A program made the position numbers and the translations under genes. A DNA stretch of 64,000 bases from Deltaproteobacteria bacterium (GTDB taxonomy: Bacteria > Desulfobacterota > Binatia > Bin18): contig VGTJ01000002.1 of the NCBI GenBank assembly GCA_016874775.1, positions 8,700 to 72,699 on the forward strand. The letters are read 5' to 3'. Position 1 is the stretch's first letter, and every line of letters begins with the position of its first letter. The notes beneath the pieces are model-generated. The model saw only the letters and a list, made by a program, of their open reading frames with translations. It did no database searches and was not told the origin of the DNA. Shown here one piece after another: positions 35,873 through 60,327 of this stretch.

Positions 35873-35917
35873 ACGCGGCTGTGAAGTCTACAGCCTATGG
35901 CTTACTTTTTATAACCT

Positions 35918-36673: not shown

Positions 36674-36721
36674 CACGTACCATGCAGCACAACACACACA
36701 TCACAAGTAAGTGAGGAACCT

Positions 36722-37492: not shown

Positions 37493-37601
37493 CTTTAATC
37501 ACAACGACGAAAATGAAGACGTTCTCTTTTGCACACTTGAGATCGTAAATGTCTCTTGTTACGTTAGGGCGCTTCCTTCATTTTCCTCAACGGTAGAACA
37601 T

Positions 37602-39170
37602 ATGCCATTTACTGAATCTGCTGGGCAGCATCGCCCGATATTTTATCATCCCTCTGGTGACACCGCGCGCCAGATTACCCTGAACGCGCGGGAAAAACTG
37701 GATTATTTTACCCGCCTGCCAATCTTTGGCGATGTGCTTGATGAACTTTTTGAAAAGATGCGTCCTGTCCTCATGCCTGACGGTAGCAAACAGCGACGTG
37801 ACATTTACGTCCGGGACGCGCTGGTTGAGAATGCCGATTTCTACGAAGTGCCAGCAGGGACGGTCATCTTTCAGGAGGGAAGCTTCGGCGAGCATCTCTT
37901 CATCGTCCTCAAAGGAACGGTACGCACCAACACCAGCGTCTCGTTAGATAACGAACGTAAAGCAATGGTTCCGCTCGAAGACCTCAAAGACGGGCACTTC
38001 TTTGGTGAGATGTCTGCGCTCTCCATGAATTCCCATCTCATCACGGCTGAGGCGGTGACGCCGACACTGTTGCTCCTGGTGCCGCAGTTTATCGTTCAAG
38101 AACTCGCAAAAACTCAAGATGCGTTCCGTGGCCCGATCATGCAAGAGTATGTACGACGAGCAGTGCTCACCCTGCTTCGTCGTATTCCGATGCTGCGTTT
38201 CACCTCCGACAACGACATCACACGTCTCCTAGAGAAAGTGGAGTTGAAGACGTTTGAAGCTGGCGACATCATCTTTGAAGAAGACGATCCACCAGACGAC
38301 TTGTATGTCATCCATCAAGGGTTCGTCAAAATCTCGAAGCGCGGCGAAGCCCGACAGCGCATTCTCAGCTATCTCAGTGAAGGCGATTGCTTCGGCGAAA
38401 TCGGCGTCCTGAACAATGCCCCACGCGCAGCAAGTGCGACAGCCATGAGCCGTACGGAGTTGCTGGTCGTGCCAGGTCCACAGTTCCAAATACTGGTCAA
38501 TGCCAACCCACAAGCGATCCAGGAAAGTCGCGGCGTTGCCAATCTACGTCGGTTAGATGCCGACATGGCACAAGACGTGACATTTATTGGTGCACGGTTG
38601 CAGTTCAAAGCCGAGGTGATGCCGAACCTGGATGTTCTCGCCATCGATGAAACCCTCTGCGTTCGTTGCGATAACTGCGTAAAGTCGTGTGCCGCCGCTC
38701 ACGATGATGGCATCTCTCGCCTTATTCGTAAGGGAACGATCTTTCAGGAGATGCTGTTACCCACAGCGTGTCGGTTCTGCCAGGATCCCGTGTGCCTCTT
38801 GTGCAAGTCAGGTGGTATCAAACGCGACAAAGACGGAGATATCTACTTCACCGATAGTTGTATTGGTTGCAGCGGGTGTGCGCAACGCTGCCCGTACGGC
38901 AACATTATTATGGTCGACATCGAAGAGTTGGAGCATTTGACACCACCGACCTTAGCGGATCAGCTTTTTCATATCGCTGCCCACAAACGCGGCGAAACCG
39001 TTGGGGCTGAGCAACGCCCACGGTTGAAAAAGGTGCCGGTCAAGTGTGACCTCGATAAGGGCCACCTCTTTCCCGCGTGTGTGAACAACTGCCCAACCCA
39101 AGCCATTCGGCGCTACCGGGCCGATGAACTTGACGTCATCATCACTGGACAACGTAACAAGAAGTCTTAA
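37602..39170 (+). CDS. tandem cyclic-nucleotide-binding (CAP-effector) domains fused to a C-terminal multi-[4Fe-4S] ferredoxin-like domain
   Basis: The first cNMP domain is ...FGEHLFIVLKGTV...GHFFGEMSAL...ITAEAV. The second is DIIFEEDD...GDCFGEIGVLNNAPRAASATA, carrying the FGE...R(S/A)A phosphate-binding cassette. Four Cys clusters follow: CVRCDNCVKSC, CRFCQDPVCLLC, CIGCSGCAQRCP and C...CVNNCP. Confidence 0.75.
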   Translation: MPFTESAGQHRPIFYHPSGDTARQITLNAREKLDYFTRLPIFGDVLDELFEKMRPVLMPDGSKQRRDIYVRDALVENADFYEVPAGTVIFQEGSFGEHLFIVLKGTVRTNTSVSLDNERKAMVPLEDLKDGHFFGEMSALSMNSHLITAEAVTPTLLLLVPQFIVQELAKTQDAFRGPIMQEYVRRAVLTLLRRIPMLRFTSDNDITRLLEKVELKTFEAGDIIFEEDDPPDDLYVIHQGFVKISKRGEARQRILSYLSEGDCFGEIGVLNNAPRAASATAMSRTELLVVPGPQFQILVNANPQAIQESRGVANLRRLDADMAQDVTFIGARLQFKAEVMPNLDVLAIDETLCVRCDNCVKSCAAAHDDGISRLIRKGTIFQEMLLPTACRFCQDPVCLLCKSGGIKRDKDGDIYFTDSCIGCSGCAQRCPYGNIIMVDIEELEHLTPPTLADQLFHIAAHKRGETVGAEQRPRLKKVPVKCDLDKGHLFPACVNNCPTQAIRRYRADELDVIITGQRNKKS

Positions 39171-39193
39171 CGCCAGCAGGAGACGAGAAGCGT

Positions 39194-40267
39194 ATGCGGT
39201 CACCCGCACGTTGGTATGTTATCGCTACCATATTAGTAGCTCTGGTCAACATCGCGTATTACGATCACTATACGGCACACTTGGTCGGGCCGCCGTCGGG
39301 CCGCACGTTTGAAGGGCTCGTTCTGGGGAATCTCGGGTTTGCGGCCATGATCGGTGCGCTGCTGTATAGTGTCCGCCGTCGCTTTCTCAGTCGCGCAATG
39401 AACGCGATCCGCGTTGATCCAGATGTACGACGGAAGATTAAAGAAGGCGAGCGCACCGCACTTGAACAGCTGCAAAACTTGCAACGCCAGGTCATGCAGA
39501 ATGCCTCACTGACGGTTTCCGCAGTTCGTCGTCAAGCGAGCGCCATCCTGCGACAAACCGGGATGAAACGTTTTCTCTATGCCCAAGTGGATGCCGGTCC
39601 AGGCGGACGTGGTGTACGGTTGGCCATTGGTCGACGCGAGTGGGGAGGCCGTTTACAGACCTGGTATTACTGGCACTTGATGCTTGGCCTCCTCTCGATC
39701 TTGCTCATTCTGACGCACGCGGGTTTTCGTTTCGGTAATCTGGTCGCCGTCCTCGCTCTCATCTGCCTGATTGGCGTCGTAGCGACAGGGACTTGGGGCT
39801 ACATCATTTATCAACTTGTTCCCACGGCCTTGACCAAGGTGGAAGAACGAGTCGAAAAAACGCCAGAAGAGTTGCGCGATGAGTTACAAGAAGTGACCCA
39901 AGAGTTAGAAACGATTATCCAAGGCAAATCCCAACTGTTCAATGAAATCTATCAACAGGAAACCGCTATCCCTGGGGTGAGTCTCAAGCCATCGTGGCGT
40001 TGGTTGTGGGCACCAGCAGAAATTGCCCGCGATACGACCCGTCCGGATCGTCTACGTCTGATCGTCAAAGAAATTCCCGGCACCGAACAAGAAGATTTCC
40101 GCCAGATGGTGCGGTTACTCTTCCAGAAAGAGAAACTTGAAGTCTCACTTTACCCGCAGTTGCGGTACGACTATCTGCTGAAGATCTGGCTCAGTTTGCA
40201 TATTCCGTTAACCGCTGGGCTGATGATCTTTTCACTCATTCACATTGTCTCGATCCTCTACTACTAA
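39194..40267 (+). CDS. polytopic membrane protein with two H-x13-H transmembrane pairs, candidate di-haem b-type cytochrome
   Basis: Four or five hydrophobic helices are visible. Helix 3 reads WHLMLGLLSILLILTH and helix 5 reads LHIPLTAGLMIFSLIH. Each has His-x13-His, the spacing that ligates two b haems in a four-helix bundle (as in cytochrome b of the bc1 complex). Helix 1 ends with HYTAH. A ~90-aa cytoplasmic coiled region lies between helices. Confidence 0.5.
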   Translation: MRSPARWYVIATILVALVNIAYYDHYTAHLVGPPSGRTFEGLVLGNLGFAAMIGALLYSVRRRFLSRAMNAIRVDPDVRRKIKEGERTALEQLQNLQRQVMQNASLTVSAVRRQASAILRQTGMKRFLYAQVDAGPGGRGVRLAIGRREWGGRLQTWYYWHLMLGLLSILLILTHAGFRFGNLVAVLALICLIGVVATGTWGYIIYQLVPTALTKVEERVEKTPEELRDELQEVTQELETIIQGKSQLFNEIYQQETAIPGVSLKPSWRWLWAPAEIARDTTRPDRLRLIVKEIPGTEQEDFRQMVRLLFQKEKLEVSLYPQLRYDYLLKIWLSLHIPLTAGLMIFSLIHIVSILYY

Positions 40268-40287
40268 ACGCAGAAGGAATAGCGGCC

Positions 40288-43200
40288 ATGATCAAGCTCA
40301 CGGTACAGACCGGAACAGAAACAGGGAAAGAGATCTCCCCCTCAAGCGATCCGATTATTCTCGGACGGAGTAGCACCTGTACGGTCGTGCTCCATGATGC
40401 CGCAGTGTCTCGTCGCCATTCCAGCATTGAACGGCGCGGTAACGACTATATCTTGACCGATCTCCAAAGTGGCAACGGGACGTTTGTCAACTCACAAGGA
40501 ACGCGCATTACCGAGCCCTATACGCTGAAAGACGGCGATGAAATCCTCATCGGGAAAAGTCGTATCCGTGTAGACCTGTCGCTGCAGTCGCAGGAAAGTC
40601 CGGGGCCGCGCAACACTGCCAGTGCAGGACAACCCGCGGCTGCGACAGACGAATCCACTCGTATTGCCCAAGCACCGCCACCGGTCAGCCCAACCCCACC
40701 GGTCAGTCCAACGCCGCCGACTGCAACGGACGGTCTCAATGCCGTTCATCAACCAGACGTGCCGATCGTTGTGACTATCGTTGGTGGCCCAAACCGCGGC
40801 ATGGTTTACTCTCCGGCACGAGAGGTTATTTCCATCGGTCGTGCAACAACATGTGACATTGCCGTCAATGACTCTACCGCTTCTCGGGTGCATGCCACGA
40901 TTAAGCGGGAGGCAGGGAAATACCGCCTGTATGATAACAATAGTGTCAATGGTGTGTATTTAAGCACCCCGCAAACTCGCGTCTATCAAACCGACCTCGC
41001 TGATGGAGATACATTTTTCGTTGGCCAGAACCAATTTCGCGTCGAAATCCATCTTACGCATCCCCCTGTATCCTTAGAAGTTGGCAGTGAAGAAGCCATG
41101 CGCATTACTGGAACCGTCGGCGGCAAAAACTTTACTTTCACCCTGAGCGCGCTCAGCGGCGGCACACGAGCAACGCAGATAGTGCCAACCGATGAAGCAA
41201 CTCGCGTTGCGATGGCACAAAGCAGTACCCCACCTCTTGATGAAGCAACCCGTTTTGTTAGGCAACCTGCGGTTCCACCAAAGCAACCGACGAGCGCGGC
41301 TCCGGCTGGTCCTAAAATTTCCCTACGGGTGATCGAAGGAGCAGATCAAGGGACGGTTTTCACTCCTCTTCCTGGTGTGGAACGTTACACCATCGGTCGT
41401 GGCGAACAAGCAACGTTTCGTCTGCAAGATCGCGGAGCATCACGTATTCACTGCGCAATCGAGATTTCCCCCGCTGGGTTTTTCCTAGTCGATGATGGAA
41501 GCCTGAACGGGACGTTTATCGGACAGAACACCGAGCGTATTACTCGTGTGGCTCTCAAGGGCGGCGAAGAAGTCTTGCTGGCAGACACTCGGTTCAAGGT
41601 TGAGATCACCCTTCCTGAAGGTGCCGCAGCCGCCGCTGAGGGTGCCGATGAAAAGACCTCGTATGTTCCCTATCATGCGCCAACTCCACCAGCCGCAACA
41701 CCGGATGCACCAGTACCTGTGGTCGTTGAGCAGCCCGCCACCGAGAATGTCAGGTCACGTTCGGCGGCGTTCAAAGATCGTTTAGCTATTATCGCTCGGC
41801 AAAGTGGAGTGACGTTACGACCGTTCACAGTTCCCGGCACTCCTCGACAGTGGGCCACATTTGCCTTGATGTTGGTTGCAGCCCTGAGTTCGTATGGCTT
41901 CGCGGTGCTCGGACGGTCTGACTATTTTGCCGGTGGTCCAATTTCAGAAAGTCACGCCAAGCTAGAGAACGGCACCTTTGAACAGCGCTGTACAGCGTGC
42001 CATCCCACTTGGGGTCTTCAACCAGTCAATGCCACCTGCGCCGCCACGGACTGTCACGCTGATGTATTGAAAGTGAGAGACGACCGGCGTGACGATTGCG
42101 TCAGTTGTCATACTGAACACCGAGGCCGGACCTTCGCGATCAAAGGCGGAAAAGAGCAATGTTGGAGTTGTCATGAAGCAGGCATGAACGTCCGTGCGTA
42201 TGCCTCACGTCCGATGGGAGTGTATCACACGCAAGTCTTTTCTGTCGCTGAACAGCTGATCCCACAACCCGGAAAAGTGCCGACGCAAGGGATACAACCG
42301 GCAGCACTCTCCACCGCACGAGAGACCTGGCAGAAAGATTTCTCTGCGCAGCCGACTGGGCTCAAGTATGCACACGCTCTCCACAGCGCGCAGGTGTTAG
42401 AGAAAAACAAGAAGCAGGAGCAATGTTTGGATTGCCACGTCAAGTTATTAGACGGGCAGTTTGCGCCATTCCCCACACATGCTCAGTGTATCGATTGTCA
42501 CAAAGAGGTTGCCAACGTCGATCCCCAGATCGCCAAGAAGAGCGCCTCGAAAGATTGTGAGTTGTGCCACACCCAGGCCGACGGGGGTGTGACCCATGTC
42601 GCACGAAATATCAACTACGTCGTCTTTCAGCATAACGATCATGGGCAAATGCGCTGTGTTCAGTGTCATGCGGTTGTGACAAGCGAGACTGAGTATCGCC
42701 CGGTCCTCCGCTCTTCAGCAGCATATCCGATGCCGATGGACGCCTGCTATTCGTGTCATGAAGAGAAGAAAGTAACGATCGCCTGCTTAGATTGCCATCG
42801 ACAACATCACAGTTATCCATCGACGACCGAATTGGCTTGGGGTTGGTTTGGTGGTCTGTCATTGAACGGCGTGCTTCTTTCTATGCTTGGACTCGTAGGT
42901 GCGACCGGTGCCTATATCTACGCAGACATGCGCCTCGCTCGACGATGGCTGGCGTCATTAGAAACGGCTACGCCACCCCCCGCAAACGAAGCGGCACCAG
43001 CAGCAGCAGGACACGACGGGCATGAGGGAGAAGCGGCACCAGCAGCAGCGGCACCAGCAGCGGCGATCCCACCACCTACTCCGAGTAGTGAGGGAGCCCT
43101 GTACCCCTATCCGACAATTGACTCCGACGCCTGTCTGCCATGCGGTACCTGTTATGACTCATGTCCCGGAAAAGTACTGGCACTGTCTCCAGCGACACAC

Positions 43201-44280
43201 AAGGCTGCGGTTGTCACTCCTGGTGCATGTCGGTCACTCACCGAAGGCTGTACCATTTGTCATGAGAACTGCCCGACCGGCGCGATCCGTATCTCGCCTG
43301 TGCCGATCGTCAGAAAATCTGAACGACCGGATATTGACCCCAACAGCGAAAGTCACAATGTTCCGGGCATCTTTTTGGGCGGAGAAATTCTGGGCAACGC
43401 TCTCATCAAAAAGGTCGTCAATCAGGGCGGACAAATTGTTCGTTACATCGATACTCGTAAACCGCGGATTCCTGAAGCCCAGTACGACGTTATCATCGTC
43501 GGTGCTGGTCCTTGTGGACTCGCTGCCGGTCTCGAAGCCAAACAACGTGGTCTTCGGTACGTGGTGCTTGAACGCGAGAGTTTGGCGAATACGATCCAGA
43601 ACTACCCACGAGATAAAGCCGTGCTCGCCGAACCAGTGCAGATGGCAGTCTACGGCTTGTTACCGATGAAAGATGCAACCAAGGAAGACCTCGTCGCACT
43701 GTGGGAAGACATTGTCCGCAAGGAAAGCTTGCACGTGAATACCCACGAAGAGGTCAGCGAAGTCAAGAAGAACGGCAACGTGATAACCGTCACCACGAAT
43801 AAAGGCACCTATCAGACCGGGTATGTGATTCTCGCCTTAGGTGCGCGGGGCAACCCTCGCAAACTCGGTGCAGCGGGTGAGGATCTTCCTAAAGTATCGT
43901 ATAACCTCAACGACCCTGCAGAATGGCAAGGGAAGCACGTGCTGGCCGTCGGTGGCGGTGACAGCGCCATTGAGGCGGCAGTAGCGATCTCCAAACAGCC
44001 AGGGGCCACGGCGACAATCTCGTATAGAAGCGGGGCTTTCTCGCGCGCGGCAGCACGAAACGTCGAAGCCATTAAAGAACAAGAAAAAGCCGGAAAACTG
44101 AAAGTGTTATTGAATTCTAACGTCACAAAAATCGAAGAGAAACGGGTCTCAATCAAAGCAGGGAACGAAGTCCACGAACTCGACAATGACGCCGTGTTTG
44201 TCCTCATCGGTGCTGATCCACCAAAGGCCTGGCTGGAAAAAATGGGGATAAAATACGTGATTGTTGAGAAAACGATCTAA
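40288..44280 (+). CDS. 1330-aa multidomain fusion protein: three FHA domains, TM helix, periplasmic ~10-haem cytochrome c, TM helix, 2x[4Fe-4S] ferredoxin, FAD/NAD(P)-binding pyridine-nucleotide oxidoreductase
   Basis: The three FHA domains are ILGRSSTCTVVL...SRRHSSI...NGTFVN, ISIGRATTCDIAV...SRVHATI...SVNGVYL and YTIGRGEQATFRL...SRIHCAI...SLNGTFIG. Pro-rich linkers join them (PPVSPTPPVSPTPP). TM1 is WATFALMLVAALSSYGFAVLG. Nine CxxCH motifs plus one Cx4CH (CAATDCH) follow. TM2 is GLSLNGVLLSMLGLVGATGAYIYA. Then come CLPCGTCYDSCP plus C...CTICHENCP, then YDVIIVGAGPCGLAAG and VLAVGGGDSAIEAA Rossmann motifs. The reading frame is uninterrupted throughout. Confidence 0.8.
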   Translation: MIKLTVQTGTETGKEISPSSDPIILGRSSTCTVVLHDAAVSRRHSSIERRGNDYILTDLQSGNGTFVNSQGTRITEPYTLKDGDEILIGKSRIRVDLSLQSQESPGPRNTASAGQPAAATDESTRIAQAPPPVSPTPPVSPTPPTATDGLNAVHQPDVPIVVTIVGGPNRGMVYSPAREVISIGRATTCDIAVNDSTASRVHATIKREAGKYRLYDNNSVNGVYLSTPQTRVYQTDLADGDTFFVGQNQFRVEIHLTHPPVSLEVGSEEAMRITGTVGGKNFTFTLSALSGGTRATQIVPTDEATRVAMAQSSTPPLDEATRFVRQPAVPPKQPTSAAPAGPKISLRVIEGADQGTVFTPLPGVERYTIGRGEQATFRLQDRGASRIHCAIEISPAGFFLVDDGSLNGTFIGQNTERITRVALKGGEEVLLADTRFKVEITLPEGAAAAAEGADEKTSYVPYHAPTPPAATPDAPVPVVVEQPATENVRSRSAAFKDRLAIIARQSGVTLRPFTVPGTPRQWATFALMLVAALSSYGFAVLGRSDYFAGGPISESHAKLENGTFEQRCTACHPTWGLQPVNATCAATDCHADVLKVRDDRRDDCVSCHTEHRGRTFAIKGGKEQCWSCHEAGMNVRAYASRPMGVYHTQVFSVAEQLIPQPGKVPTQGIQPAALSTARETWQKDFSAQPTGLKYAHALHSAQVLEKNKKQEQCLDCHVKLLDGQFAPFPTHAQCIDCHKEVANVDPQIAKKSASKDCELCHTQADGGVTHVARNINYVVFQHNDHGQMRCVQCHAVVTSETEYRPVLRSSAAYPMPMDACYSCHEEKKVTIACLDCHRQHHSYPSTTELAWGWFGGLSLNGVLLSMLGLVGATGAYIYADMRLARRWLASLETATPPPANEAAPAAAGHDGHEGEAAPAAAAPAAAIPPPTPSSEGALYPYPTIDSDACLPCGTCYDSCPGKVLALSPATHKAAVVTPGACRSLTEGCTICHENCPTGAIRISPVPIVRKSERPDIDPNSESHNVPGIFLGGEILGNALIKKVVNQGGQIVRYIDTRKPRIPEAQYDVIIVGAGPCGLAAGLEAKQRGLRYVVLERESLANTIQNYPRDKAVLAEPVQMAVYGLLPMKDATKEDLVALWEDIVRKESLHVNTHEEVSEVKKNGNVITVTTNKGTYQTGYVILALGARGNPRKLGAAGEDLPKVSYNLNDPAEWQGKHVLAVGGGDSAIEAAVAISKQPGATATISYRSGAFSRAAARNVEAIKEQEKAGKLKVLLNSNVTKIEEKRVSIKAGNEVHELDNDAVFVLIGADPPKAWLEKMGIKYVIVEKTI

Positions 44281-44309
44281 GGCCTCGCCACCTCCCCCGT
44301 ACAAATGCC

Positions 44310-44337: not shown

Positions 44338-44421
44338 AGTACCCACCGTCTGACAATAAAATACTTCTAGAATAGGCCGATAAAGTAGGGTACAGTAATT
44401 TGCAGTACAAAGAGGTATCGT

Positions 44422-44929: not shown

Positions 44930-47900
44930 CTATCGCGTGCGAGCAACACGCCCGCCATTACTTTTTTCTAACTTGACTTCTTTCGGTGGCAGGGCAAGAG
45001 TCTTGCCATCTATCGTGTCAACTCGGATGAAGCGGACCACCGCACGGTTCCCTTCGTTGCGGACGCTCACATCCCGGAACGATACACTGTAGCTTTTGTA
45101 CCCCTCCAGGATCCCACGAAGTCTGGTCGCGTCCTGTGCTGAGATTTCGCCGAGCTGCACCAGGGCATCCGTATTTTTGTTTTCCCATGCCGGGCGATAG
45201 ATGGTTTCCAGCCAGTTCATGGCTTCTCTATCACTGGGAGGTCCGGCTTCCTTTGCCCGTTCAGTTTCTTCGCGTTGGACCTTCGCCAATCGTTCCTCTT
45301 CCGCCAGTCTCGCGGCTTCTGCTTTCCGCCGCTCTTCCTCTGCAGCTCTCTGGCGAACGGCCTCTTCTGCTCTGCGCCGTTCCTCTTCCGCTCGTGCAGT
45401 TTTCTCTTGTTCAGCTCTCAAGCGCTCAGCTTCTGCCTTTGCTGCCTTCTCTTGTTCCGCTTTCAACCGATCGGCCTCCGCCTTTGCCGCTTTCTCTTGA
45501 TCCGCCTTGAGCTTTTCAGCTTTGGCTTGTTCGGCTTTCACACGATCGGCTTCCGCTTTTGCCGCCTTTTCTTGTTCAGCTTTGAGTCGTTCCGCCTCGG
45601 CCCGTAGGGTCTTTTCTTGTTCAGCTTTTAGGCGGTCAGCTTCCGCTTTTGCCGCTTTCTCTTGGTCCGCCTTAAGCTTCTCAGCTTTGGCTTGTTCGGC
45701 TTTCACACGATCGGCTTCCGCTTTTGCTGCTTCCGCCTTTCGCCGATCTTCCTCTGCTTTCTGAGCTTTGGCTACTTCTTCAGCTTTGCGGCGATCGTCT
45801 TCTGCCTTTTGGGATTTAGCTACCTCCTCGGCCTTACGACGTTCTTCCTCTGCTTTCAATTGGTCGGCTTTGGCTTGTTCAGCTTTCAGACGCGCCTCTT
45901 CTTCTTGTGCTGCATTCGCTTGGGCGGCCTTTCGGGCTTCTTCCTCCTGCGCCTGCTGAGTCGACGGTTTCTGCGGGTTAACTGACTCTCCTCCTCGGCT
46001 GAAATAAAACCCTAAGGCAGCAACAACGACAAACGCGGCGATACCTGCGACAACTGGCGAAGATTGACGCGCAGGAGAAGGGGCATCCACGGGAACGGGA
46101 CGACTGGTACGCTCGCCTTCCGTTGTTGGCCCCTGATCAAGCAGCGGATGGACTTCTGTTTCTTGCTGCTGCAATGCGGAGAGAAGTGCAGAGGCTTCAT
46201 TATAGCTCGCGAGCGCTTGTGGGTAGCGTTTTTGCTGAAACGACTGATCGCCTGTAGTGATAAACTTCTCAGCTGACTTTTTCTGTTTCCCTTTCGCAGT
46301 CTGCGTTTGTTGTCGCAGCTCGTACGCGCGAGTTCTTGCACCCTCGGCTTCATGCTTTTGCCATGCAACCTCAGACTCTTGGCGAATCTGTTTCCAGCGC
46401 GAAACATTACGGTCAAACTGGTCTCGTGCCGCATCAAACTTTTCGTCGGCAAGCGCCTGCTCTGCCTTATGCAACTCAGACATCGCCTCGACATGTTGAC
46501 CAGGAAGAAATTCTTCACTCCTGACCGCCTGGGCCTCTGCCTGGGCTGCAACGGCCCGTTTCTGCGACTCTGTCGCGGCTTGCTTCGCTCGGGCAAGCCG
46601 GGCAATTCCCAATGCCTGACCAAACAACTCTCCTGCTTGCGCTGAGAGCGTAACCGATTCCTCGAATTGCTTTGCAGCTAACGCAGCCTCCGCCTGCTCT
46701 CGCACTTCCTGTGCTTGTCGATAGAGGTCTGCAGCATATTGTGGAGCATGCACGGCGTCAGCTTCGCGTTGACGTCCTTTCGCTTCTTGATTAGCCAAGA
46801 GGGCACGTTGCTGCTGCTCCTCTACTTCAGCTTCAGCTTGCGCGTACTCATAGATCTGTGCAGCCTGCGCATAATGCGCGCGGGCTTGCTCATACGCCTG
46901 TGCCTGCCACGCTTTCTCACCTTCGGTCTCGGAGGTTTGCGCTTCTTTCCACCGGGCTGCGGCAAAACGAGGAGCTAGGGTGCTGGCCGCTTGTTTTGCC
47001 TGTGCGGCTTGCTGCCGCACAACATCGGCCTCTTCCTGAGCAATTTGTTGCTGCACCGCCTGAACGAGCTTGATAAACTGTTGTTGCGCTTGTTCGTAAT
47101 TCTGGCGGGCTGTAGTGAAGTCATCTTTTTTTTGCGCAGCCTGGCCACGTTCGAAAAGTCCTCGAACCTGAGCAAACTCGCGCGGGAAACGTTGCTCGGC
47201 AGAACTCTGGGTTGCGGCAGATCCTGCTTCTTCTGCACGTTGCAGAGCAGCAAGCATTTCCTGCTTAGCGTACTCATGCTGTGCCGTACCCTTCGCCTGC
47301 ACAAAGAGTTCTTCTGCGTGGCGATACTCACGTGTAGCTTGACTAAATTTTTGCTGTCGTTGGTGGCGACTCGCTTCATCGAGAGCCGCCGCCGCCTGGT
47401 TAAAATCCGTGGCCGCATAGCGTGGGGCATCAACTTCTTCGGCTTGCTTCTTCGCAGTACCAGCCTGTTTTTCTGCCGCAGCGGTTTCTTGTCGGAGTCG
47501 TTCCTGTTCTCCTGCTGTCGCTGCCGTCGTGTATAACTGCGCCGTCTGTGTGTACTGCGCCAGTGCGTTTTCGTAGTCTTGGTCTGAGAACGCTCGCTCG
47601 GCATCGGCTTCTTGCTTCTGCGCGGCCTCCCATTGTGCGTTGGCCCATTGTTTCAGCTCACTCGCGTTCTCTTTCGCCTGCAGCATCTGTTGGCGCGCCG
47701 CTGCAGCGTCTTCGCGTGCAGCCTCAACGTCTGCGTCACGACGAAGACGCAACAGTTGCTGACGAGCCTGTTCGTATAAATCACTCGCTTGGGAGAAGTC
47801 TTGTTGTGTTTCCGCTTGTTGTCCCCGGACAACTACCTGTTGAGCACGAGCAAACTCTTGTGCGAAGCGTGAGTGGACTGCCGCTTCAGTGGCTGCAACC

Positions 47901-50900
47901 TGAGCAGCTTCCAATCGCTGACGCAGGGCAATGACAGCCTGCCGCGCTCTTTCTTGTTGTGCATCGTGCGCAGCTTGTGACCACAGTGACCGTGCTTGTG
48001 CAAACGCTTGGCTGGCATCGTTCCAGTGCTGGGCGTGCATCTGTTGTTCGGCCTGTTGAGCAGTCTGCGCCCCTTGCTGAAAGAGCGCCGTAGCGTACCT
48101 TTCCGCCTCAGCTCGTTGCGCTTCAGCGCGAGCTTCTTCCGCTTGTTGCTGCGCATCGAGTGCGCGGCGTCGCTGCCGCTCGATCTCAGCTGCGTGTCGA
48201 GCCTTCTCGGCCTCTGTTCGCGCTTCTATGTAACGTTGCGTGACGCGATCATACGCTTCTGCTGCTTTCGCATACTGCTGGGCTTCCCAGGCGGCGTTCG
48301 CTTCAGCTTCTGTTCGTTCCGCGTCAGCCCATTTCGCTCCGCGCCATTCAGTGAGCCCCGCCAATCCATTCCTAGATTCAGCCGCACGTTTCCGTGCGGC
48401 TTCCGCCTTTTCCTTCTCAGCTTGCCGAAAGGCTTCGCCCCCAAGACGCTCCCAGAGTTGACGTGCTTGCTGATAGGCCTCGCTTGCCTGAGAGAAATTC
48501 TCTTGCGTTTCCGCTTGGGCCGCTTGCTCAACAAGGTGTGAGGCTTTAGCAAAATCCGTGGCAAAGCGTTGTGCAGCCCCGGACTTCTCGGCAATCTGCC
48601 GTGCTTCCGTTGTACGTTGTCGAGCGCTTACGGCTTCCTGTCTGTGACGTTCCCGTTGCGCATCGTCAGCAGCTTTCGCCAGCAGCTCTGCCGCGCGCCA
48701 ATAGCGTTGAATCGCCGCCCGCAATTCTTTGGTGCGAATCTGTTTTTCAGCGTCGCTCAGTGCAGCAAGCCCATCGCGCCACAACTCAGCAGCGTAACGC
48801 GTTGCTTCGCGTTGTTCAGCGCGCGTTTTTGCAGACTGCGCTTGCTGCTGTGCATCACGGACTTCCTGTTGTAATTGTTCTTGCTCAGCGTTAGTGCGTG
48901 CTTGGGTATAAGCCTTCGCAGCCTGAGTGTAGAGATCCGTAGCACTGCGATATTCTTGCTTCTGGTAGGCCTGGTCCGCACGCTGCACACGTTCACGCGC
49001 CTGCGCCCAGTTCTCCTTAGCCCAGGCCTGCAGGGGCTCACTCCCCTGCACCACTTCTGCCATTTTCTGCCGCGCGGTATCAGCCTGCTCACGGGCAGCA
49101 AGCACGGCACATTCACGCGCGAGTTGTTGAAAGCGCTGGGCGGCCTCTGTATAGCGGTGGCGAGATTCGCGATATTGCTCTCGCTTTTCGTGCTCTTGTC
49201 CCTCGGCAACCAAGCGTTGAATCTGTTGGTAGGAGGAAGCCGCGCGTTCCTTTGCTTCCGCTTGGTCAGCTTGCACTTGGGCTTGTTGCAGCTGTTGCCG
49301 GACTGCAGCAGTAGCCTGTCGATCTTGTTCGGTAGCGGCTTCTTGGGTGGCTTGCTCATAGCGATCGCGCGCCTGCAGATACGCCTGCTTGGCCTTGTCA
49401 TACGCCTTCGCTTGCAACTGCGTGTCACCTTGCTTCTGGAACAAGGTAGCTTGCTGATACAACGGAGAGGCAAGATCGCGCGCCTGCGCGTCTTCAGCTT
49501 GACGCTGTGCTTCTTTGGCTTGTTGTTGGACGGCGACGGTTTCTAACCGTTGCTGTTCATTGACTGCCTCTTGTTGCGCACGCTCATATTTTTGCGCAGC
49601 AGCAAGATATAACTCACGCGCTTGGGTAAATTCTTCATGCGTGATTGCTGCACTTGCCCGTTGTTCTTGATCTGCAGCTTCACGAAAGAGGTTAGCGGCA
49701 AGTCGTGTCGCACCTTGCTCTTCCGCCGCCGCTTTTGCAGCGGTCGCCCGCGCATGCGCTTTCTCTGCTTCGTCTTTTAGGGTCTCACGGTACGCTTGCT
49801 CGCGAGCATCAGCGAAGGAACGTGCAGCTTCACTATAGCCGTGCGCCGCGTGCTGAAAATCACCTTTCTCAAGAAATTCATCAGCTTGCGATTCCAGGGT
49901 GAGGGCACGCGCGTATCGCGTGCGCGCGTGCCCTCGTGCGCCGTAGTGCTCAGCCTCTTCCTTGGCGGCGGCCATGTTACCCCGTGCCTGCTCGGCTTTC
50001 CGTTTGGCTGCTGCGGTTTGCGCTTCTGCGGCTGCCTGGGTGAAGATCTGGATGGCCTCATCGAATGCTTGTTGAGCTGCGGTAAAGTCCTTGTCCCGTA
50101 AGCTCTTCGCACCGTGTCCTTCCGCCGTCATTCCTTGCTGAAGCAAGGTGGCAGCCCATTCTGACGCACCGTCACGAGTCGCGCGTTCGCGTGCCTCACG
50201 CGCTTGCGTCTGGAGCGACAAAATACGACGACGCTCCCGTTCTTCTTCAAGTTTGCGGATCTGGTCTTCGATATCGTCGTCAGCCTGTGCCTCTTGCTTT
50301 TTCTCTTCTTTTTTTCCCAGCCCAGAGAGAATCAGCGTACCGGTGTCTTCTCCATCAGCGCTCAAATTCCGACAGCTCTCTAGCGCTTGCAGTAGTTCCC
50401 GCATGCTGTGGTAGCGATGGGCACGATTTTTCGCGATCGCCCGCGTCAACAGGTCAGCAAACGCGGCAGGCGTTGGGCGATCAAAGTGCGGCTCGTTCTC
50501 TTTGGTATCGTACAAGACCTTGCCCAGCACGGCATGTTCATCGAGCCCGCCGAAGAATTGCCTACCGGTGCACATCTCATACATCACCATACCCAGCGAA
50601 TAGACATCCGCTCCACCGTCAAGCTGCTCATGGCGCAGTTGCTCAGGCGAGGCATATTTCAAGGTCCCGATCACCATGCCGGTCTTGGTGGAATCGCCAT
50701 CGCCCAGTTCCTTGGCGATGCCAAAGTCCATCACCACCACGCGTGACGAATGGTCCTCAATCATGATGTTGGCGGGTTTGATGTCACGATGGATGATCGG
50801 CGGGGTATGGCCGTGGGCATAGCCTAGGGCTTCAGCGACCTGGCGCGAGATACGCAGAATTTCCGGCAGCGGCAACGGGCCTTTTTCACGGATGTATTTT

Positions 50901-51199
50901 CCAAGCGTCACCCCCTCGATGTACTCCATGACAAAGTAGTAGAGGTTCAGAGTCTCATCGCGCTCGATATCAAGGACACGAACGATATTGGGATGGTTAA
51001 GCCGAGCCATGACGCGCGCTTCCCGATAGAAGCGGTTCACCATGTCTTCGTTTTCCATCAAATACGCAGGCAGGACCTTGAGGGCAGAGATGGTGTCGAG
51101 GGCGGTGTGGCGAACTTTATACACCAGCCCCATGCCACCTTGACCCAGTTGGCCAACAACCTCGTACTTGCGGGAAATCACCATCGGCTTAGTTGCCAT
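44930..51199 (-). CDS. giant (2089-aa) Hanks-type Ser/Thr protein kinase: N-terminal kinase domain, a ~1100-aa degenerate helical repeat region, TM helix, a ~300-aa K/E/A-rich TolA-like spacer, C-terminal NTF2-like domain
   Basis: The kinase domain has GQGGMGLVYKV, the K in ALKVL, HRDIKPANIMI, DFGIAKE and GTLKYASPEQ. Repeated W..A..W...Y..A..Y and RFA.EFA blocks follow. The TM helix is VVAGIAAFVVVAALGFYF. Then come KAEQEKAAKAEADRLKAEQ repeats, and then the NTF2-like domain. Confidence 0.9.
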   Translation of the reverse strand: MATKPMVISRKYEVVGQLGQGGMGLVYKVRHTALDTISALKVLPAYLMENEDMVNRFYREARVMARLNHPNIVRVLDIERDETLNLYYFVMEYIEGVTLGKYIREKGPLPLPEILRISRQVAEALGYAHGHTPPIIHRDIKPANIMIEDHSSRVVVMDFGIAKELGDGDSTKTGMVIGTLKYASPEQLRHEQLDGGADVYSLGMVMYEMCTGRQFFGGLDEHAVLGKVLYDTKENEPHFDRPTPAAFADLLTRAIAKNRAHRYHSMRELLQALESCRNLSADGEDTGTLILSGLGKKEEKKQEAQADDDIEDQIRKLEEERERRRILSLQTQAREARERATRDGASEWAATLLQQGMTAEGHGAKSLRDKDFTAAQQAFDEAIQIFTQAAAEAQTAAAKRKAEQARGNMAAAKEEAEHYGARGHARTRYARALTLESQADEFLEKGDFQHAAHGYSEAARSFADAREQAYRETLKDEAEKAHARATAAKAAAEEQGATRLAANLFREAADQEQRASAAITHEEFTQARELYLAAAQKYERAQQEAVNEQQRLETVAVQQQAKEAQRQAEDAQARDLASPLYQQATLFQKQGDTQLQAKAYDKAKQAYLQARDRYEQATQEAATEQDRQATAAVRQQLQQAQVQADQAEAKERAASSYQQIQRLVAEGQEHEKREQYRESRHRYTEAAQRFQQLARECAVLAAREQADTARQKMAEVVQGSEPLQAWAKENWAQARERVQRADQAYQKQEYRSATDLYTQAAKAYTQARTNAEQEQLQQEVRDAQQQAQSAKTRAEQREATRYAAELWRDGLAALSDAEKQIRTKELRAAIQRYWRAAELLAKAADDAQRERHRQEAVSARQRTTEARQIAEKSGAAQRFATDFAKASHLVEQAAQAETQENFSQASEAYQQARQLWERLGGEAFRQAEKEKAEAARKRAAESRNGLAGLTEWRGAKWADAERTEAEANAAWEAQQYAKAAEAYDRVTQRYIEARTEAEKARHAAEIERQRRRALDAQQQAEEARAEAQRAEAERYATALFQQGAQTAQQAEQQMHAQHWNDASQAFAQARSLWSQAAHDAQQERARQAVIALRQRLEAAQVAATEAAVHSRFAQEFARAQQVVVRGQQAETQQDFSQASDLYEQARQQLLRLRRDADVEAAREDAAAARQQMLQAKENASELKQWANAQWEAAQKQEADAERAFSDQDYENALAQYTQTAQLYTTAATAGEQERLRQETAAAEKQAGTAKKQAEEVDAPRYAATDFNQAAAALDEASRHQRQQKFSQATREYRHAEELFVQAKGTAQHEYAKQEMLAALQRAEEAGSAATQSSAEQRFPREFAQVRGLFERGQAAQKKDDFTTARQNYEQAQQQFIKLVQAVQQQIAQEEADVVRQQAAQAKQAASTLAPRFAAARWKEAQTSETEGEKAWQAQAYEQARAHYAQAAQIYEYAQAEAEVEEQQQRALLANQEAKGRQREADAVHAPQYAADLYRQAQEVREQAEAALAAKQFEESVTLSAQAGELFGQALGIARLARAKQAATESQKRAVAAQAEAQAVRSEEFLPGQHVEAMSELHKAEQALADEKFDAARDQFDRNVSRWKQIRQESEVAWQKHEAEGARTRAYELRQQTQTAKGKQKKSAEKFITTGDQSFQQKRYPQALASYNEASALLSALQQQETEVHPLLDQGPTTEGERTSRPVPVDAPSPARQSSPVVAGIAAFVVVAALGFYFSRGGESVNPQKPSTQQAQEEEARKAAQANAAQEEEARLKAEQAKADQLKAEEERRKAEEVAKSQKAEDDRRKAEEVAKAQKAEEDRRKAEAAKAEADRVKAEQAKAEKLKADQEKAAKAEADRLKAEQEKTLRAEAERLKAEQEKAAKAEADRVKAEQAKAEKLKADQEKAAKAEADRLKAEQEKAAKAEAERLRAEQEKTARAEEERRRAEEAVRQRAAEEERRKAEAARLAEEERLAKVQREETERAKEAGPPSDREAMNWLETIYRPAWENKNTDALVQLGEISAQDATRLRGILEGYKSYSVSFRDVSVRNEGNRAVVRFIRVDTIDGKTLALPPKEVKLEKSNGGRVARTR
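45420..45770. repeat. near-identical in-frame tandem DNA repeats (165-bp period with ~82-bp sub-period) inside the kinase gene
   Basis: The unit starting TCAGCTTTGGCTTGTTCGGCTTTCACACGATCGGCTTCCGCTTTTGCCGC at 45516 recurs at 45681 with only 1-2 mismatches. The repeats encode the duplicated ...AKAEADRVKAEQAKAEKLKADQEKAAKAEADRLKAEQEK... segment. Confidence 0.7.
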
Positions 51200-51214
51200 G
51201 GGTGGACTTCCGAG

Positions 51215-52000
51215 TTAGCCAGCTACGGTTGGATCTTCAATGTACGACAGAATGATGATCGTACTGTTATCTCGGCCCCCACGTTCATTGGCGAGATTGA
51301 CCAGCGCATCACACGATTTTTCGAAATCTGGAGCGGTCTCGTTAATGATACGAAGCATGTCGCTATCTTCAACCACCCCATGAATCCCGTCACTACACAA
51401 GAGGTAAATATCTCCGGATTGGGGCCGTTCGAGCCGCACTGAAGGTTGGACAAGTGGACTCACCCCAACGGCTTGTGTCAACACATGACGGTGCGGAAAT
51501 GTCTTGACTTCTGTTGGTCCGATTTTGCCTTCACGGAGTAACTGCTGCACAAGCGAATGATCTTCCGTGAGGAGCTCAATCGTACCATCACGAACGCGAT
51601 AGACGCGAGAATCGCCAACATGACAAATCCCGGCAACGCTTTCGTGCTCATCAAACAAGACAGCAGCCACCGTTGTCCCCATGCCATTGAGGGCCGGGTC
51701 CTGCTGGCTCATCTCGAAAACTTTGTTATTTGCTCCCTGGATTGCGAGGAAAAGACGACGACCAGCGACCGACGACCAGCCATTCTCGGTTGTGATGGGC
51801 GTCAGATCTTCTCCCTCAGTTTCCTGGAGAACCCCATGCATCGTTTCTACAGCTAAGGCACTTGCGCGCTCTCCCCCGAGATGCCCCCCCATCCCATCCG
51901 CCACGATATAAAACGCCGCCTCGGGAAAGAATCCGGAGGAGTCCTCGTTTTTCACACGCACCTTACCCGTGTCGGTTTTAACTGCGCCACAGATGGACAC
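51215..52000 (-). CDS. PP2C-family Ser/Thr protein phosphatase
   Basis: It uses a GTG start with AAGGAG RBS. VKTDTGKVRVKNEDS...ADGMGGHLGGERAS is the PP2C metal-binding motif set. It ends 15 nt upstream of the kinase gene on the same strand, in the PstP-PknB-like arrangement. Confidence 0.85.
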   Translation of the reverse strand: MSICGAVKTDTGKVRVKNEDSSGFFPEAAFYIVADGMGGHLGGERASALAVETMHGVLQETEGEDLTPITTENGWSSVAGRRLFLAIQGANNKVFEMSQQDPALNGMGTTVAAVLFDEHESVAGICHVGDSRVYRVRDGTIELLTEDHSLVQQLLREGKIGPTEVKTFPHRHVLTQAVGVSPLVQPSVRLERPQSGDIYLLCSDGIHGVVEDSDMLRIINETAPDFEKSCDALVNLANERGGRDNSTIIILSYIEDPTVAG

Positions 52001-53752: not shown

Positions 53753-53805
53753 ACGATTGCACCTCCAGAGAAGACTCACATTCCCCGCACTCAATCAGAA
53801 CAGCA

Positions 53806-60160: not shown

Positions 60161-60327
60161 TAAGCGCAAGAGTTCACGGAACACTTTCGACTCTTCATTC
60201 TCGACAACCACACTTCAGGCAATTCCCTGAGTGCTCCACAGGCCGAGTTGACCGACTTTACGACAGTTCACCACTTGTGCTACTCTACGTTGATCAGCGC
60301 ATCGGGTGGGTAGGAAGGACAACACGT

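What the first reader, a model, noticed from the sequence alone, without database searches (positions are those of the whole stretch)
39194..40267. Membrane protein with two His-x13-His helices, a di-haem b signature, between the Fe-S sensor and the cytochrome fusion
Helix 3 (WHLMLGLLSILLILTH) and helix 5 (LHIPLTAGLMIFSLIH) each carry two His exactly 13 residues apart. That geometry is what cytochrome b-type four-helix bundles use to ligate a high- and a low-potential haem across the membrane. The gene sits between the cNMP/Fe-S gene and the cytochrome-fusion gene. That placement suggests it is the quinone- or membrane-coupling subunit of the module. I recognise no other family motif in it.
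Basis: partly seen in the sequence, partly recalled or inferred. Interest (0 to 1): 0.6.

Follow-up and report, generated by a model that had tools for sequence, protein, structure and literature searches.

The report
PtdF-like di-haem membrane cytochrome
This is a real, conserved five-helix membrane protein whose four invariant histidines most likely hold two haems that carry electrons across the inner membrane, from a cytoplasmic NAD(P)H/iron-sulfur module to periplasmic multihaem cytochromes. Its family was recently named PtdF, but nobody has tested it.

Summary
ORF 39194-40267 (+, 357 aa) has only six His. Four of them form two H-x13-H pairs, in TM3 (H161/H175) and TM5 (H336/H350). All four are invariant in 27 relatives, and 322 of 325 full-length family proteins carry two H-x13-H motifs.

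No Pfam or NCBIfam model reaches its threshold. Family members repeatedly give sub-threshold hits to three families, DUF4405, prokaryotic cytochrome b561 and the ferric-reductase domain, which I know as His-ligated b-haem membrane families. Foldseek found no solved fold for two confident models.

The gene always sits after a gene for cNMP-binding domains plus a HycB/NrfC-type Fe-S wire. It sits beside NAD(P)H flavoproteins and multihaem cytochromes c. A 272-aa short form sits at the PtdF position of ptdABCDEFG-type loci, an operon named in a 2024 preprint that calls PtdF "ferric reductase-like" and its function unknown.

The window carries a Binatia-specific long form with a ~95-aa cytoplasmic insertion. 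Its partner is a 1330-aa fusion of three FHA domains, a TM helix, about 10 haems c, a second TM helix, Fer4 and a flavoprotein. That fusion has no cofactor ligand in its own TM helices.

Best reading: a NOX-like, split, regulated electron exporter with this protein as the transmembrane di-haem step. Haem binding and haem geometry remain untested. Quinone coupling has no support.

The parts
39194..40267 (+). PtdF-like membrane protein, long (Binatia) form, 357 aa, five predicted TM helices; putative di-haem b cytochrome
   Evidence: ORF. A 100% identical 'hypothetical protein' exists in an NCBI MAG. The family profile finds 3297 cluster representatives at E<=1e-3. Model pLDDT is 81.7.
39662..39727 (+). 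TM3 (about residues 157-178), carrying W157, H161 (39674-39676), G165 and H175 (39716-39718), the first H-x13-H pair. R179 and N182 follow in the short outer loop.
   Evidence: These columns are invariant. Hydropathy. Predicted helix 151-176.
40175..40261 (+). TM5 (about residues 328-356), carrying K330, W332, H336 (40199-40201), P338 and H350 (40241-40243), the second H-x13-H pair. It shows the same W-x3-H-x13-H pattern as TM3.
   Evidence: These columns are invariant. Hydropathy. Predicted helix 296-356.
39731..39823 (+). TM4 (about residues 180-210) with invariant G199 and G202. It has no His. I infer that it packs against the haems.
   Evidence: Invariant Gly columns. It has the highest hydropathy of the protein.
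39374..39661 (+). Cytoplasmic insertion of about 95 aa between TM2 and TM3 (residues 61-156; 21 K/R against 7 D/E). It is specific to the long form and absent from the 272-aa short form.
   Evidence: The alignment with P0072 and P0073 shows a gap here. Profile hits of the short form begin at query position about 150. Charge count.
39824..40174 (+). Helical cytoplasmic domain between TM4 and TM5 (residues 211-327), present in both forms. I infer that it is the docking platform for the Fe-S partner.
   Evidence: Conserved columns. Predicted helices.
37602..39170 (+). PtdE-like protein, 522 aa: two cNMP-binding domains plus a C-terminal HycB/NrfC-type Fe-S domain with 15 Cys in four groups. It has no obvious signal peptide, so I infer that it is cytoplasmic.
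   Evidence: Pfam hits. Cys positions. PDB sequence match 7qv7_A (HycB3) at 1.8e-15 over the full length, and also NrfC, PsrB, NarH and FdnH. It lies immediately upstream of the PtdF-like gene in every long-form locus where the contig reaches, and next to or within a few kb of it in the distant loci read.
40288..44280 (+). 1330-aa fusion protein: 3x FHA, TM helix (residues 523-541), 9 CxxCH plus 1 CX4CH (residues 568-837), TM helix (854-872), Fer4, and a YpdA/TrxR/FNR-type flavoprotein (about 1065-1325). Neither TM helix contains a His.
   Evidence: Pfam and NCBIfam hits. Motif and TM positions. PDB sequence hits to Bdr/YpdA, TrxR and TrxR-type FNR. It follows the PtdF-like gene in every long-form locus where the contig reaches.
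58880..60160 (+). Ten-haem cytochrome c (426 aa), a likely accessory periplasmic partner.
   Evidence: 10 CxxCH. Pfam cytochrome c3/c7. It is 47% identical to the gene directly downstream of the fusion gene in L003. Homologues also lie near the trio in L016 and L017.
60277..62022 (+). HbpS-like protein (581 aa), paired with the ten-haem cytochrome.
   Evidence: Pfam PF03928. Syntenic with the trio in L003, L004, L017 and L020.
52229..53794 (-). Putative outer-membrane beta-barrel (Phenol_MetA_deg family), a possible porin partner.
   Evidence: Pfam hit. Homologues flank the trio in L015 and L016.
44930..52000 (-). Ser/Thr protein kinase (2089 aa, 44930-51199) and PP2C phosphatase (51215-52000), candidate regulators of the three FHA domains.
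   Evidence: Pfam hits. A kinase homologue lies near the trio in L017. The regulatory link is an inference.

Best explanation
The gene encodes a b-type, two-haem transmembrane electron carrier. It is a divergent long form of the PtdF family.

Topology (inferred): N-terminus inside, five TM helices, both large loops cytoplasmic, C-terminus outside. TM3 and TM5 run parallel from inside to outside. H161 and H336 would therefore ligate a haem near the cytoplasmic face, and H175 and H350 a haem near the periplasmic face. Fourteen residues of helix span about 21 A. The invariant Gly of TM4, the Trp four residues before each inner His, and R179 and K330 at the membrane boundaries fit haem packing and propionate binding.

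Proposed path (inferred): NAD(P)H -> FAD of the flavoprotein at the C-terminus of the 1330-aa fusion -> its Fer4 -> the multi-cluster Fe-S wire of the cNMP-binding protein, docked on the cytoplasmic helical domain -> inner haem b -> outer haem b -> the roughly ten-haem periplasmic domain of the same fusion -> further cytochromes and an unknown acceptor.

The fusion protein has redox modules on both sides of the membrane but no cofactor ligand in its own two TM helices. A separate transmembrane carrier is therefore required, and this gene is the only candidate in the operon.

The cNMP-binding domains (on the Fe-S wire) and the FHA domains (on the reductase) probably gate the flow of electrons.

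What is shown: the sequence features, their conservation, the gene linkage and the domain identities. What is inferred: haem binding, topology, docking, direction of flow and regulation.
For: - Four invariant His as two H-x13-H pairs in TM helices. The chance of such a pattern is 0.2% even before conservation is considered.
- Other invariant residues cluster around them: W157, G165, R179, N182, G199, G202, K330, W332, P338.
- Sub-threshold Pfam hits are dominated by three families I know as b-haem membrane families. In 78 full-length members: DUF4405 34, Ni_hydr_CYTB 23, Ferric_reduct 14. In 30 loop-deleted TM cores: 22, 20 and 10, with best E-values of 8e-7 and 6.5e-7.
- The window's own core aligns end to end with Ferric_reduct: core residues 8-123 against profile positions 1-119 of 121.
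- A DUF4405 protein (Oscillospiraceae) and the related FezC were purified and shown to bind haem b, and DUF4405 has four central His (PMC11334425).
- The gene trio is conserved in all long-form loci.
- The short form sits in ptdABCDEFG-type loci between the cNMP/Fe-S gene and a decahaem gene, with an FNR-like NAD(P)H reductase nearby.
- The reductase is replaced by a non-homologous one (FNR-type versus TrxR/YpdA-type) while the PtdE-PtdF pair stays constant.
- The Fe-S domain matches electron-wire subunits such as HycB, NrfC, PsrB and NarH.
- In the fusion protein the haem c motifs lie between two TM helices that lack His.
Against: - There is no experimental evidence of haem for any family member.
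- No curated model reaches its threshold for the window protein.
- Foldseek of two confident models against the PDB gave no cytochrome hit.
- Profile comparisons with E. coli MsrQ and YodB were not significant.
- A profile search of PDB sequences found nothing.
- The protein has five helices and long cytoplasmic inserts, unlike any solved di-haem b protein.
- The direction of electron flow and the terminal acceptor are unknown.
Confidence: 0.6

Rival explanations
1. It is a quinone-coupled cytochrome b. The protein would be a quinol dehydrogenase or quinone reductase anchor, like NarI, FdnI or CbcL, exchanging electrons between the quinone pool and the Fe-S or multihaem partners rather than passing them straight through.
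For: It has the same di-haem signature. Its partner is an Fe-S protein of the NarH/FdnH/NrfC/PsrB class, which classically docks on quinone-reactive anchors. It shows remote similarity to Ni_hydr_CYTB, the family I know to include FdnI and HyaC.
Against: I identified no quinone-site motif. The Fe-S partner is cytoplasmic and fused to cNMP domains, not Tat-exported. Every locus variant carries its own NAD(P)H flavoprotein, which makes a quinone donor unnecessary. The His arrangement is two plus two on two helices, unlike FdnI and b561, where it is 1+1+2 (established knowledge; YodB His positions).
Confidence: 0.15
2. It is a haem-based redox or gas sensor. The haems would sense membrane or periplasmic redox state and pass a conformational signal through the large cytoplasmic helical domain to the cNMP, FHA, kinase and phosphatase signalling proteins. 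They would not conduct a metabolic electron current.
For: The neighbourhood is unusually rich in signalling domains: 2x cNMP, 3x FHA, a Ser/Thr kinase and a PP2C phosphatase. The top, non-significant Foldseek hits of the short-form model are sensor helical bundles such as TorS, McpS, NarQ and PilJ.
Against: Those fold hits have E above 0.28. The conserved partners are bulk redox modules: a multi-cluster Fe-S wire, NAD(P)H flavoproteins and cytochromes with 4, 5 and 10 haems, plus a porin in the ptd loci. The signalling domains are fused to the redox proteins, which suggests they regulate those proteins.
Confidence: 0.08
3. The His do not serve electron transfer. They would bind a metal (as in CopD-like proteins) or handle haem for maturation of the adjacent c-type cytochromes (as in CcsA or CcmF).
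For: Six of 78 members give weak Cytochrom_C_asm hits, best E 0.0025. The gene is always next to multihaem cytochrome c genes.
Against: There is no Trp-rich periplasmic WWD loop: the outer loops are only about 6-15 residues. Hits to the three b-haem families are far more frequent and stronger. Linkage is tightest to the cytoplasmic Fe-S protein, with overlapping stop and start codons in the short form.
Confidence: 0.05

Closest known systems
PtdF of the ptdABCDEFG cluster (bioRxiv 10.1101/2023.11.21.568154)
   Same: It is homologous: the 272-aa short form matches at E 1e-7 and 30% identity over the TM3-TM5 core, and profile hits reach 1e-46. The four His and the W-x3-H pattern are the same. 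Its position directly after the cNMP + 4Fe-4S gene (PtdE) is the same, as is its association with an NAD(P)H flavoprotein and multihaem cytochromes. The preprint calls PtdF 'ferric reductase-like' and the function 'completely unknown'.
   Different: The window protein carries a ~95-aa cytoplasmic insertion between TM2 and TM3. PtdC, PtdD and PtdG are replaced by one 1330-aa fusion whose flavoprotein is TrxR/YpdA-type rather than FNR-type. The window has no pentahaem PtdA or PtdB porin. The long form is confined to Binatia-type MAGs, not the marine Alpha-/Gammaproteobacteria, Nitrospirales and Planctomycetes MAGs that the preprint lists.
DUF4405 (PF14358) cytochromes and FezC (PMC11334425)
   Same: Both have four centrally placed TM His. 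This is the most frequent remote Pfam hit of the family (34 of 78 full-length members, 22 of 30 cores). A DUF4405 protein was shown to bind haem b.
   Different: The window protein scores about 15 bits against a 26.7-bit cut-off. DUF4405 proteins are described as six-TM and linked to ApbE flavinylation. The window protein has five TM helices, large cytoplasmic helical inserts, and Fe-S and multihaem partners.
Ferric-reductase domain superfamily (PF01794: NOX, FRE, MsrQ/YedZ)
   Same: Both have bis-His pairs on TM3 and TM5, with the loops before each of those helices on the cytoplasmic side. The loop-deleted core aligns end to end with the Pfam profile. The overall logic is also shared: NAD(P)H -> flavin -> two stacked haems b -> an acceptor outside. 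MsrQ TM5 shows a similar W-x3-H-x12-H pattern.
   Different: The score is below threshold (16.3 against 28 bits). Comparison with E. coli MsrQ is not significant. The window protein has five helices, not six. The spacing is 13/13, whereas NOX has 13/12 (from memory). The flavin domain is not fused to it, and an Fe-S wire is interposed. The acceptor is a multihaem cytochrome rather than O2, Fe(III) or MsrP.
Prokaryotic cytochrome b561 / Ni-hydrogenase and formate dehydrogenase cytochrome b (PF01292) with their Fe-S beta subunits (FdnH-FdnI, NarH-NarI type modules)
   Same: Both pair a four-cluster-type Fe-S subunit with a di-haem b membrane subunit. Members give remote hits up to 29.7 bits against a 30.1-bit cut-off. 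One helix carries H-x13-H, as in E. coli YodB (H138/H152).
   Different: In b561 and FdnI the other two ligands come from two different helices. Those anchors are quinone-reactive. Comparison with YodB is not significant. Here the Fe-S subunit is cytoplasmic and fused to cNMP domains.
Cytochrome b of bc1 / b6f
   Different: No sequence or fold similarity was detected: there were no Pfam hits and no PDB sequence or Foldseek hits. There is no sign of Q-cycle partners.

Membership tests
PtdF (ptd operon) | Sequence homology to the membrane protein encoded between ptdE and ptdG | tested here: met
   P0072 lies in a locus with the layout 5-haem / porin-sized gene with no haem motif / FNR / 4-haem / cNMP-FeS / this protein / cytochrome. 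It matches the window protein at E 1e-7 and aligns with all four His. I did not compare sequences with the preprint's own accessions.
PtdF (ptd operon) | Gene immediately downstream of a cNMP-binding + 4Fe-4S gene (PtdE) | tested here: met
   37602-39170 precedes 39194-40267 with a 23-nt gap. The same order holds in all long-form loci and in the short-form loci.
PtdF (ptd operon) | Cluster also encodes an FAD/NAD(P) oxidoreductase plus tetra- and decahaem cytochromes as separate proteins | tested here: not met
   The functions are present but fused into one 1330-aa protein, with a different flavoprotein family.
PtdF (ptd operon) | Pentahaem PtdA and porin PtdB in the cluster | tested here: not met
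   Only two ORFs in the window carry two or more CxxCH motifs, and each has 10. An unrelated Phenol_MetA_deg-type barrel lies at 52229-53794.
Ferric_reduct (PF01794) | Pfam gathering score (28 bits) | tested here: not met
   The full-length protein gives no hit. The loop-deleted core scores 16.3 bits at E 0.01, although it aligns end to end.
Ferric_reduct (PF01794) | Two bis-His pairs on TM3 and TM5 | tested here: met
   H161/H175 lie on TM3 and H336/H350 on TM5. The spacing is 13/13.
Ferric_reduct (PF01794) | Six TM helices | tested here: not met
   Five helices are predicted, and the protein ends right after TM5.
DUF4405 (PF14358) | Pfam gathering score (26.7 bits) | tested here: not met
   The score is 15.0-15.1 bits at E 0.03-0.04. 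34 of 78 relatives give hits with E up to 0.1, the best at 1.6e-4.
Ni_hydr_CYTB (PF01292) | Pfam gathering score (30.1 bits) and the 1+1+2 His ligand pattern | tested here: not met
   The window core scores 12.9 bits. The best relative scores 29.7 bits. The His pattern here is 2+2.
Any di-haem b cytochrome | Binds two haem b through bis-His ligation, with the imidazole pairs facing one another | not testable with these tools
Cytochrome b (bc1/b6f) and NarI | Detectable sequence or fold similarity | tested here: not met
   There were no Pfam, PDB sequence or Foldseek hits.

The most novel reading that the evidence does not exclude
PtdE, PtdF and their reductase and cytochrome partners form a previously uncharacterised class of regulated, quinone-independent electron exporter. 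It would be a 'split bacterial NOX' in which cytoplasmic NAD(P)H is wired through a cyclic-nucleotide-gated Fe-S chain and a dedicated five-helix di-haem b protein, of a fold with no solved relative, directly onto periplasmic or extracellular multihaem cytochromes. Ser/Thr phosphorylation, read by FHA domains, would act as a second switch. The Binatia version condenses donor and acceptor modules into one polypeptide that straddles the membrane.
Probability: 0.35. Interest if true: 0.8.

Novelty: new variant of a known kind. Interest (0 to 1): 0.55.

Why it matters
Known routes that deliver respiratory electrons to periplasmic or extracellular multihaem cytochromes (CymA, ImcH, CbcL, NetBCD) start from the quinone pool. 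This point rests on my own knowledge, not on a tool result.

A widespread module that takes electrons straight from NAD(P)H across the membrane would be a different solution. The family has 3297 cluster representatives at 50% identity. Members were found in Planctomycetes, Rhodospirillales, SAR324, Magnetococcales, Verrucomicrobia-type and Binatia MAGs, and the preprint adds Nitrospirales. The module also carries built-in cNMP and phospho-threonine control.

Such a system would bear on iron, manganese or nitrogen cycling in oxygen-deficient waters and soils. It would also give function to a large protein family that has no Pfam model.

The four invariant His make the central claim directly testable by mutagenesis and spectroscopy.

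Tried and rejected
- **Foldseek against the PDB.** I searched with the window model (pLDDT 81.7) and the short-form model (pLDDT 91.7). No hit had E below 0.28. The top hits were generic long-helix bundles.
- **Profile hmmsearch of PDB sequences.** The full-length family profile hit only coiled-coil noise from the cytoplasmic domain. The loop-deleted TM core hit nothing relevant.
- **hhalign and hmmsearch of the family profile against E. coli MsrQ and YodB.** Neither was significant. There is only a motif-level resemblance between the PtdF TM3 region (W-x3-H-x13-H) and MsrQ TM5 (W-x3-H-x12-H).
- **Mean-field DCA on 319 family sequences to test TM3-TM5 packing.** The result was dominated by N-terminal gap artefacts (Meff 245). 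I discarded it.
- **Fusion partners.** Three longer family members (P0144, P0189, P0214) had no Pfam domains.
- **Promoter and terminator scan of 37300-45100.** The counts did not differ from shuffled sequence, so it was uninformative.
- **Cytochrome c maturation or haem-handling role.** I rejected this because there is no WWD-type periplasmic loop.
- **Genome-wide locus search with the broad alignment A3.** It failed because no stretch was conserved enough. I used the long-form alignment A1 instead.
- **Third homology search.** I ran no further search on building an FRD or b561 profile. That profile-profile test remains open.
Full report
**1. Observation**

The ORF 39194..40267 (+) is real. 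It has a GGAG about 11 nt upstream of its ATG. Its N-terminus is shared by its homologues. An identical protein is deposited as 'hypothetical protein FJ147_00670' from a 'Deltaproteobacteria bacterium' MAG.

The 357-aa product has six His. H161 and H175 lie in WHLMLGLLSILLILTH. H336 and H350 lie in LHIPLTAGLMIFSLIH. Random placement of six His gives two or more such pairs in 0.2% of trials.

Hydropathy and an AlphaFold2 model (mean pLDDT 81.7) place the pairs inside helices 151-176 and 296-356. These are the third and fifth of five membrane helices.

The loop between TM2 and TM3 has 21 K/R against 7 D/E. From the positive-inside rule I infer the following topology: N-terminus inside, both large loops (residues 61-156 and 211-327) cytoplasmic, and TM3 and TM5 parallel from inside to outside. 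H161 and H336 then sit near the inner face, and H175 and H350 near the outer face.

**2. Conservation**

A word-indexed search found 73 relatives. All are annotated 'hypothetical', and those that carry an organism name are mostly Candidatus Binatia MAGs. They include two 272-aa proteins at about 30% identity.

In a 27-sequence alignment all four His are invariant. So are W157, G165, R179, N182, G199, G202, K330, W332, P338 and others.

An exhaustive profile search found 3297 cluster representatives at E<=1e-3 and 1236 at E<=1e-10. Most are about 272 aa long and match query positions of about 150-356.

In 78 of these representatives (31% mean column identity), H74, H88 and H247 (P0072 numbering) are invariant, together with W70, G113, G116 and W243. 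H261 is present in at least 90%. In a 57-sequence alignment of short and long forms all four His are invariant. 322 of 325 family proteins of at least 240 aa carry two or more H-x13-H motifs.

Both His-bearing helices show W-x3-H-x13-H. The helix between them carries two invariant Gly and no His. I read this pattern as haem ligation plus haem packing. That reading is an inference from what is known of di-haem b proteins.

**3. Relation to known families**

No Pfam or NCBIfam model reaches its cut-off for the window protein. The sub-threshold hits are not random, however.

| Set scanned | DUF4405 | Ni_hydr_CYTB | Ferric_reduct |
|---|---|---|---|
| 78 full-length members | 34 | 23 (best 9.9e-8) | 14 |
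| 30 loop-deleted cores (TM2-TM4 joined to TM5) | 22 (best 8.1e-7) | 20 (best 6.5e-7) | 10 |

No other family is hit by more than six members in the first set.

The window's own core aligns end to end with Ferric_reduct: core residues 8-123 against profile positions 1-119 of 121, 16.3 bits, E 0.01. From my own knowledge, all three families are His-ligated b-haem membrane domains. A DUF4405 protein was purified and shown to bind haem b, and has four central His (PMC11334425).

The protein is therefore at most a remote relative of the di-haem b families. It is not a member of any curated family, and its overall architecture has no solved counterpart. That architecture is five TM helices, with TM4 and TM5 extending into a cytoplasmic helical domain.

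**4. Context**

The three genes 37602-39170, 39194-40267 and 40288-44280 are separated by 23 nt and 20 nt.

*Upstream gene.* It has two cNMP-binding domains. By my reading of the phosphate-binding cassette, the second has a canonical FGE...PRAASATA motif and the first is degenerate. Its C-terminal Fe-S domain has 15 Cys in four groups. This domain matches HycB3 of the hydrogen-dependent CO2 reductase over its full length (1.8e-15). It also matches formate-hydrogenlyase HycB, ArrB, NrfC/PsrB, NarH and FdnH. These are electron-wire subunits rather than sensors.

*Downstream gene.* It encodes 1330 aa in this order: three FHA domains, a TM helix (523-541), nine CxxCH plus one CX4CH (568-837), a second TM helix (854-872), a Fer4 domain and a flavoprotein. 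The flavoprotein's closest solved relatives are YpdA/Bdr, thioredoxin reductases and TrxR-type ferredoxin-NADP reductases. This polypeptide therefore has an NAD(P)H/FAD/Fe-S module inside the cell and about ten haems c outside. It has no His in either TM helix, so it cannot move electrons across the membrane by itself.

*Conservation of the trio.* The trio is present in every long-form locus where the contig reaches. These are 13 hits in a scan of 185,579 species-representative genomes, two of them fragments from one MAG, plus loci from the contig look-ups. All are Binatia-type MAGs, though a few carry doubtful labels.

*Variable companions.* A ten-haem cytochrome (window 58880-60160), an HbpS-like protein (60277-62022) and an outer-membrane barrel (52229-53794, minus strand) lie close to the trio in other Binatia loci.

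**5. The short form is PtdF**

Locus L005 encodes, in this order:
- a five-haem protein;
- a 498-aa protein with no haem motif and a hydrophobic N-terminus;
- an FNR-like NAD_binding_1 + Fer2 protein;
- a four-haem protein;
- a cNMP + Fer4_11 protein;
- the 272-aa homologue, whose start overlaps the preceding stop codon;
- another cytochrome.

L006 and L008 add a ten-haem protein directly after the homologue, and a five-haem protein and a porin-sized gene further downstream.

This is the layout of the ptdABCDEFG operon named in bioRxiv 10.1101/2023.11.21.568154. [quoted passage not shown] The preprint says the function 'remains completely unknown'. No other paper in the library mentions it.

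In L006 the FNR-like reductase itself carries an FHA domain. FHA on the reductase and cNMP domains on the Fe-S wire are thus recurrent features. The flavoprotein family, in contrast, has been swapped between the short-form systems (FNR-type) and the long-form systems (TrxR/YpdA-type). A constant PtdE-PtdF core with interchangeable NAD(P)H donors and multihaem acceptors is what one expects if that core is the transmembrane step of an electron-export chain.

**6. Mechanism proposed**

This section is inference throughout. The proposed path is: NAD(P)H -> FAD -> Fer4 of the fusion protein -> Fe-S wire of the PtdE-like protein, docked on the cytoplasmic helical domain of the PtdF-like protein -> haem b ligated by H161/H336 -> haem b ligated by H175/H350 -> the multihaem domain -> further cytochromes and an unknown acceptor.

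Outward electron flow is favoured by the membrane potential, and the reverse direction would be uphill. Cyclic nucleotides, together with Ser/Thr phosphorylation, probably gate the flux. The kinase at 44930-51199 and the PP2C phosphatase at 51215-52000 are nearby.

The rival readings are a quinone-coupled anchor, a haem-based sensor, and a non-redox His function. They are set out in their own section. None is excluded, but each fits the conserved partners less well.

**7. Comparison and novelty**

The system works like a NOX or MsrQ-Fre system split into separate proteins, or like an Fe-S beta subunit plus di-haem gamma subunit of the molybdoenzyme respiratory complexes. By homology and synteny it is a member of the PtdF family. 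It fails the Pfam thresholds for Ferric_reduct, DUF4405 and Ni_hydr_CYTB.

Three things appear to be undescribed:
- the long form with its ~95-aa insertion;
- its restriction to Binatia;
- its pairing with a single membrane-straddling fusion of FHA domains, multihaem cytochrome, ferredoxin and flavoprotein.

The general idea that PtdF is ferric-reductase-like is already in a preprint. I therefore rate this a new variant of a known (but uncharacterised) kind.

**8. Limits**

Haem binding, stoichiometry, topology, docking, direction of flow and the acceptor are all untested. I could not measure the His geometry, because model coordinates are not exposed by the tools. A coevolution analysis failed for lack of sequence depth.

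Noticed in passing
window 44930-51199 (-) and 51215-52000 (-): A 2089-aa Ser/Thr kinase has a very long Ala/Glu/Lys/Gln-rich repetitive region (KAEQEKAAKAEADRLKAEQ-type repeats near its C-terminal part). A PP2C phosphatase lies next to it. This region shows the strongest AT-skew excursion of the window (-0.22 to -0.32). Together with the three FHA domains of the fusion protein it forms a kinase/phosphatase/FHA triad.
   Followed up: partly
window 58880-60160 (+) and 60277-62022 (+): A ten-haem cytochrome c and a 581-aa HbpS-like protein form a pair. In other Binatia loci (L003, L004, L017) the pair lies directly downstream of the fusion gene. Here it is displaced by about 14 kb.
   Followed up: partly
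window 52229-53794 (-): A 521-aa Phenol_MetA_deg-type putative outer-membrane barrel. Homologues flank the trio in L015 and L016. It could play the porin role that PtdB has in the ptd clusters.
   Followed up: partly
L002 9951-11201, compared with L001: Two assemblies hold the same Binatia-type region. In L002 a DDE_Tnp_1 transposase gene splits the fusion gene between its FHA part and its cytochrome/flavoprotein part. In L001 the gene is intact (1010 aa, two FHA, 7 CxxCH).
   Followed up: no
L007 3856-6538: In a short-form locus, IS-type genes (rve, HTH_Tnp_1) separate the cNMP/Fe-S gene from the PtdF gene. More IS copies and a phage integrase follow the decahaem gene.
   Followed up: no
L013 and L016 (record titles): Two TPA MAGs titled 'uncultured Enterobacteriaceae bacterium' carry the Binatia-type trio at 57-68% identity. 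Their taxonomic labels look wrong.
   Followed up: no
window 44422-44919 (+): A 165-aa ORF with a hydrophobic N-terminus and no Pfam hit follows the fusion gene. It is 85% identical to an ORF about 1.2 kb downstream of the fusion gene in L010.
   Followed up: partly
window 37602-39170, residues 134-160 and 264-285: By my reading of the phosphate-binding cassette, only the second cNMP-binding domain keeps the canonical FGE...PR(A)A motif with the phosphate-binding Arg. The first reads FGEMSALSMNSHLITAEA and lacks the Arg.
   Followed up: no
window 33161-37492: The genes upstream of the module appear unrelated to it. They are a 903-aa ORF that I take to be a glycoside hydrolase, an ORF that looks like a 6-phosphogluconolactonase, and a HAD/NagD-type phosphatase-like ORF. 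I judged these from the translations only and did not search them.
   Followed up: no
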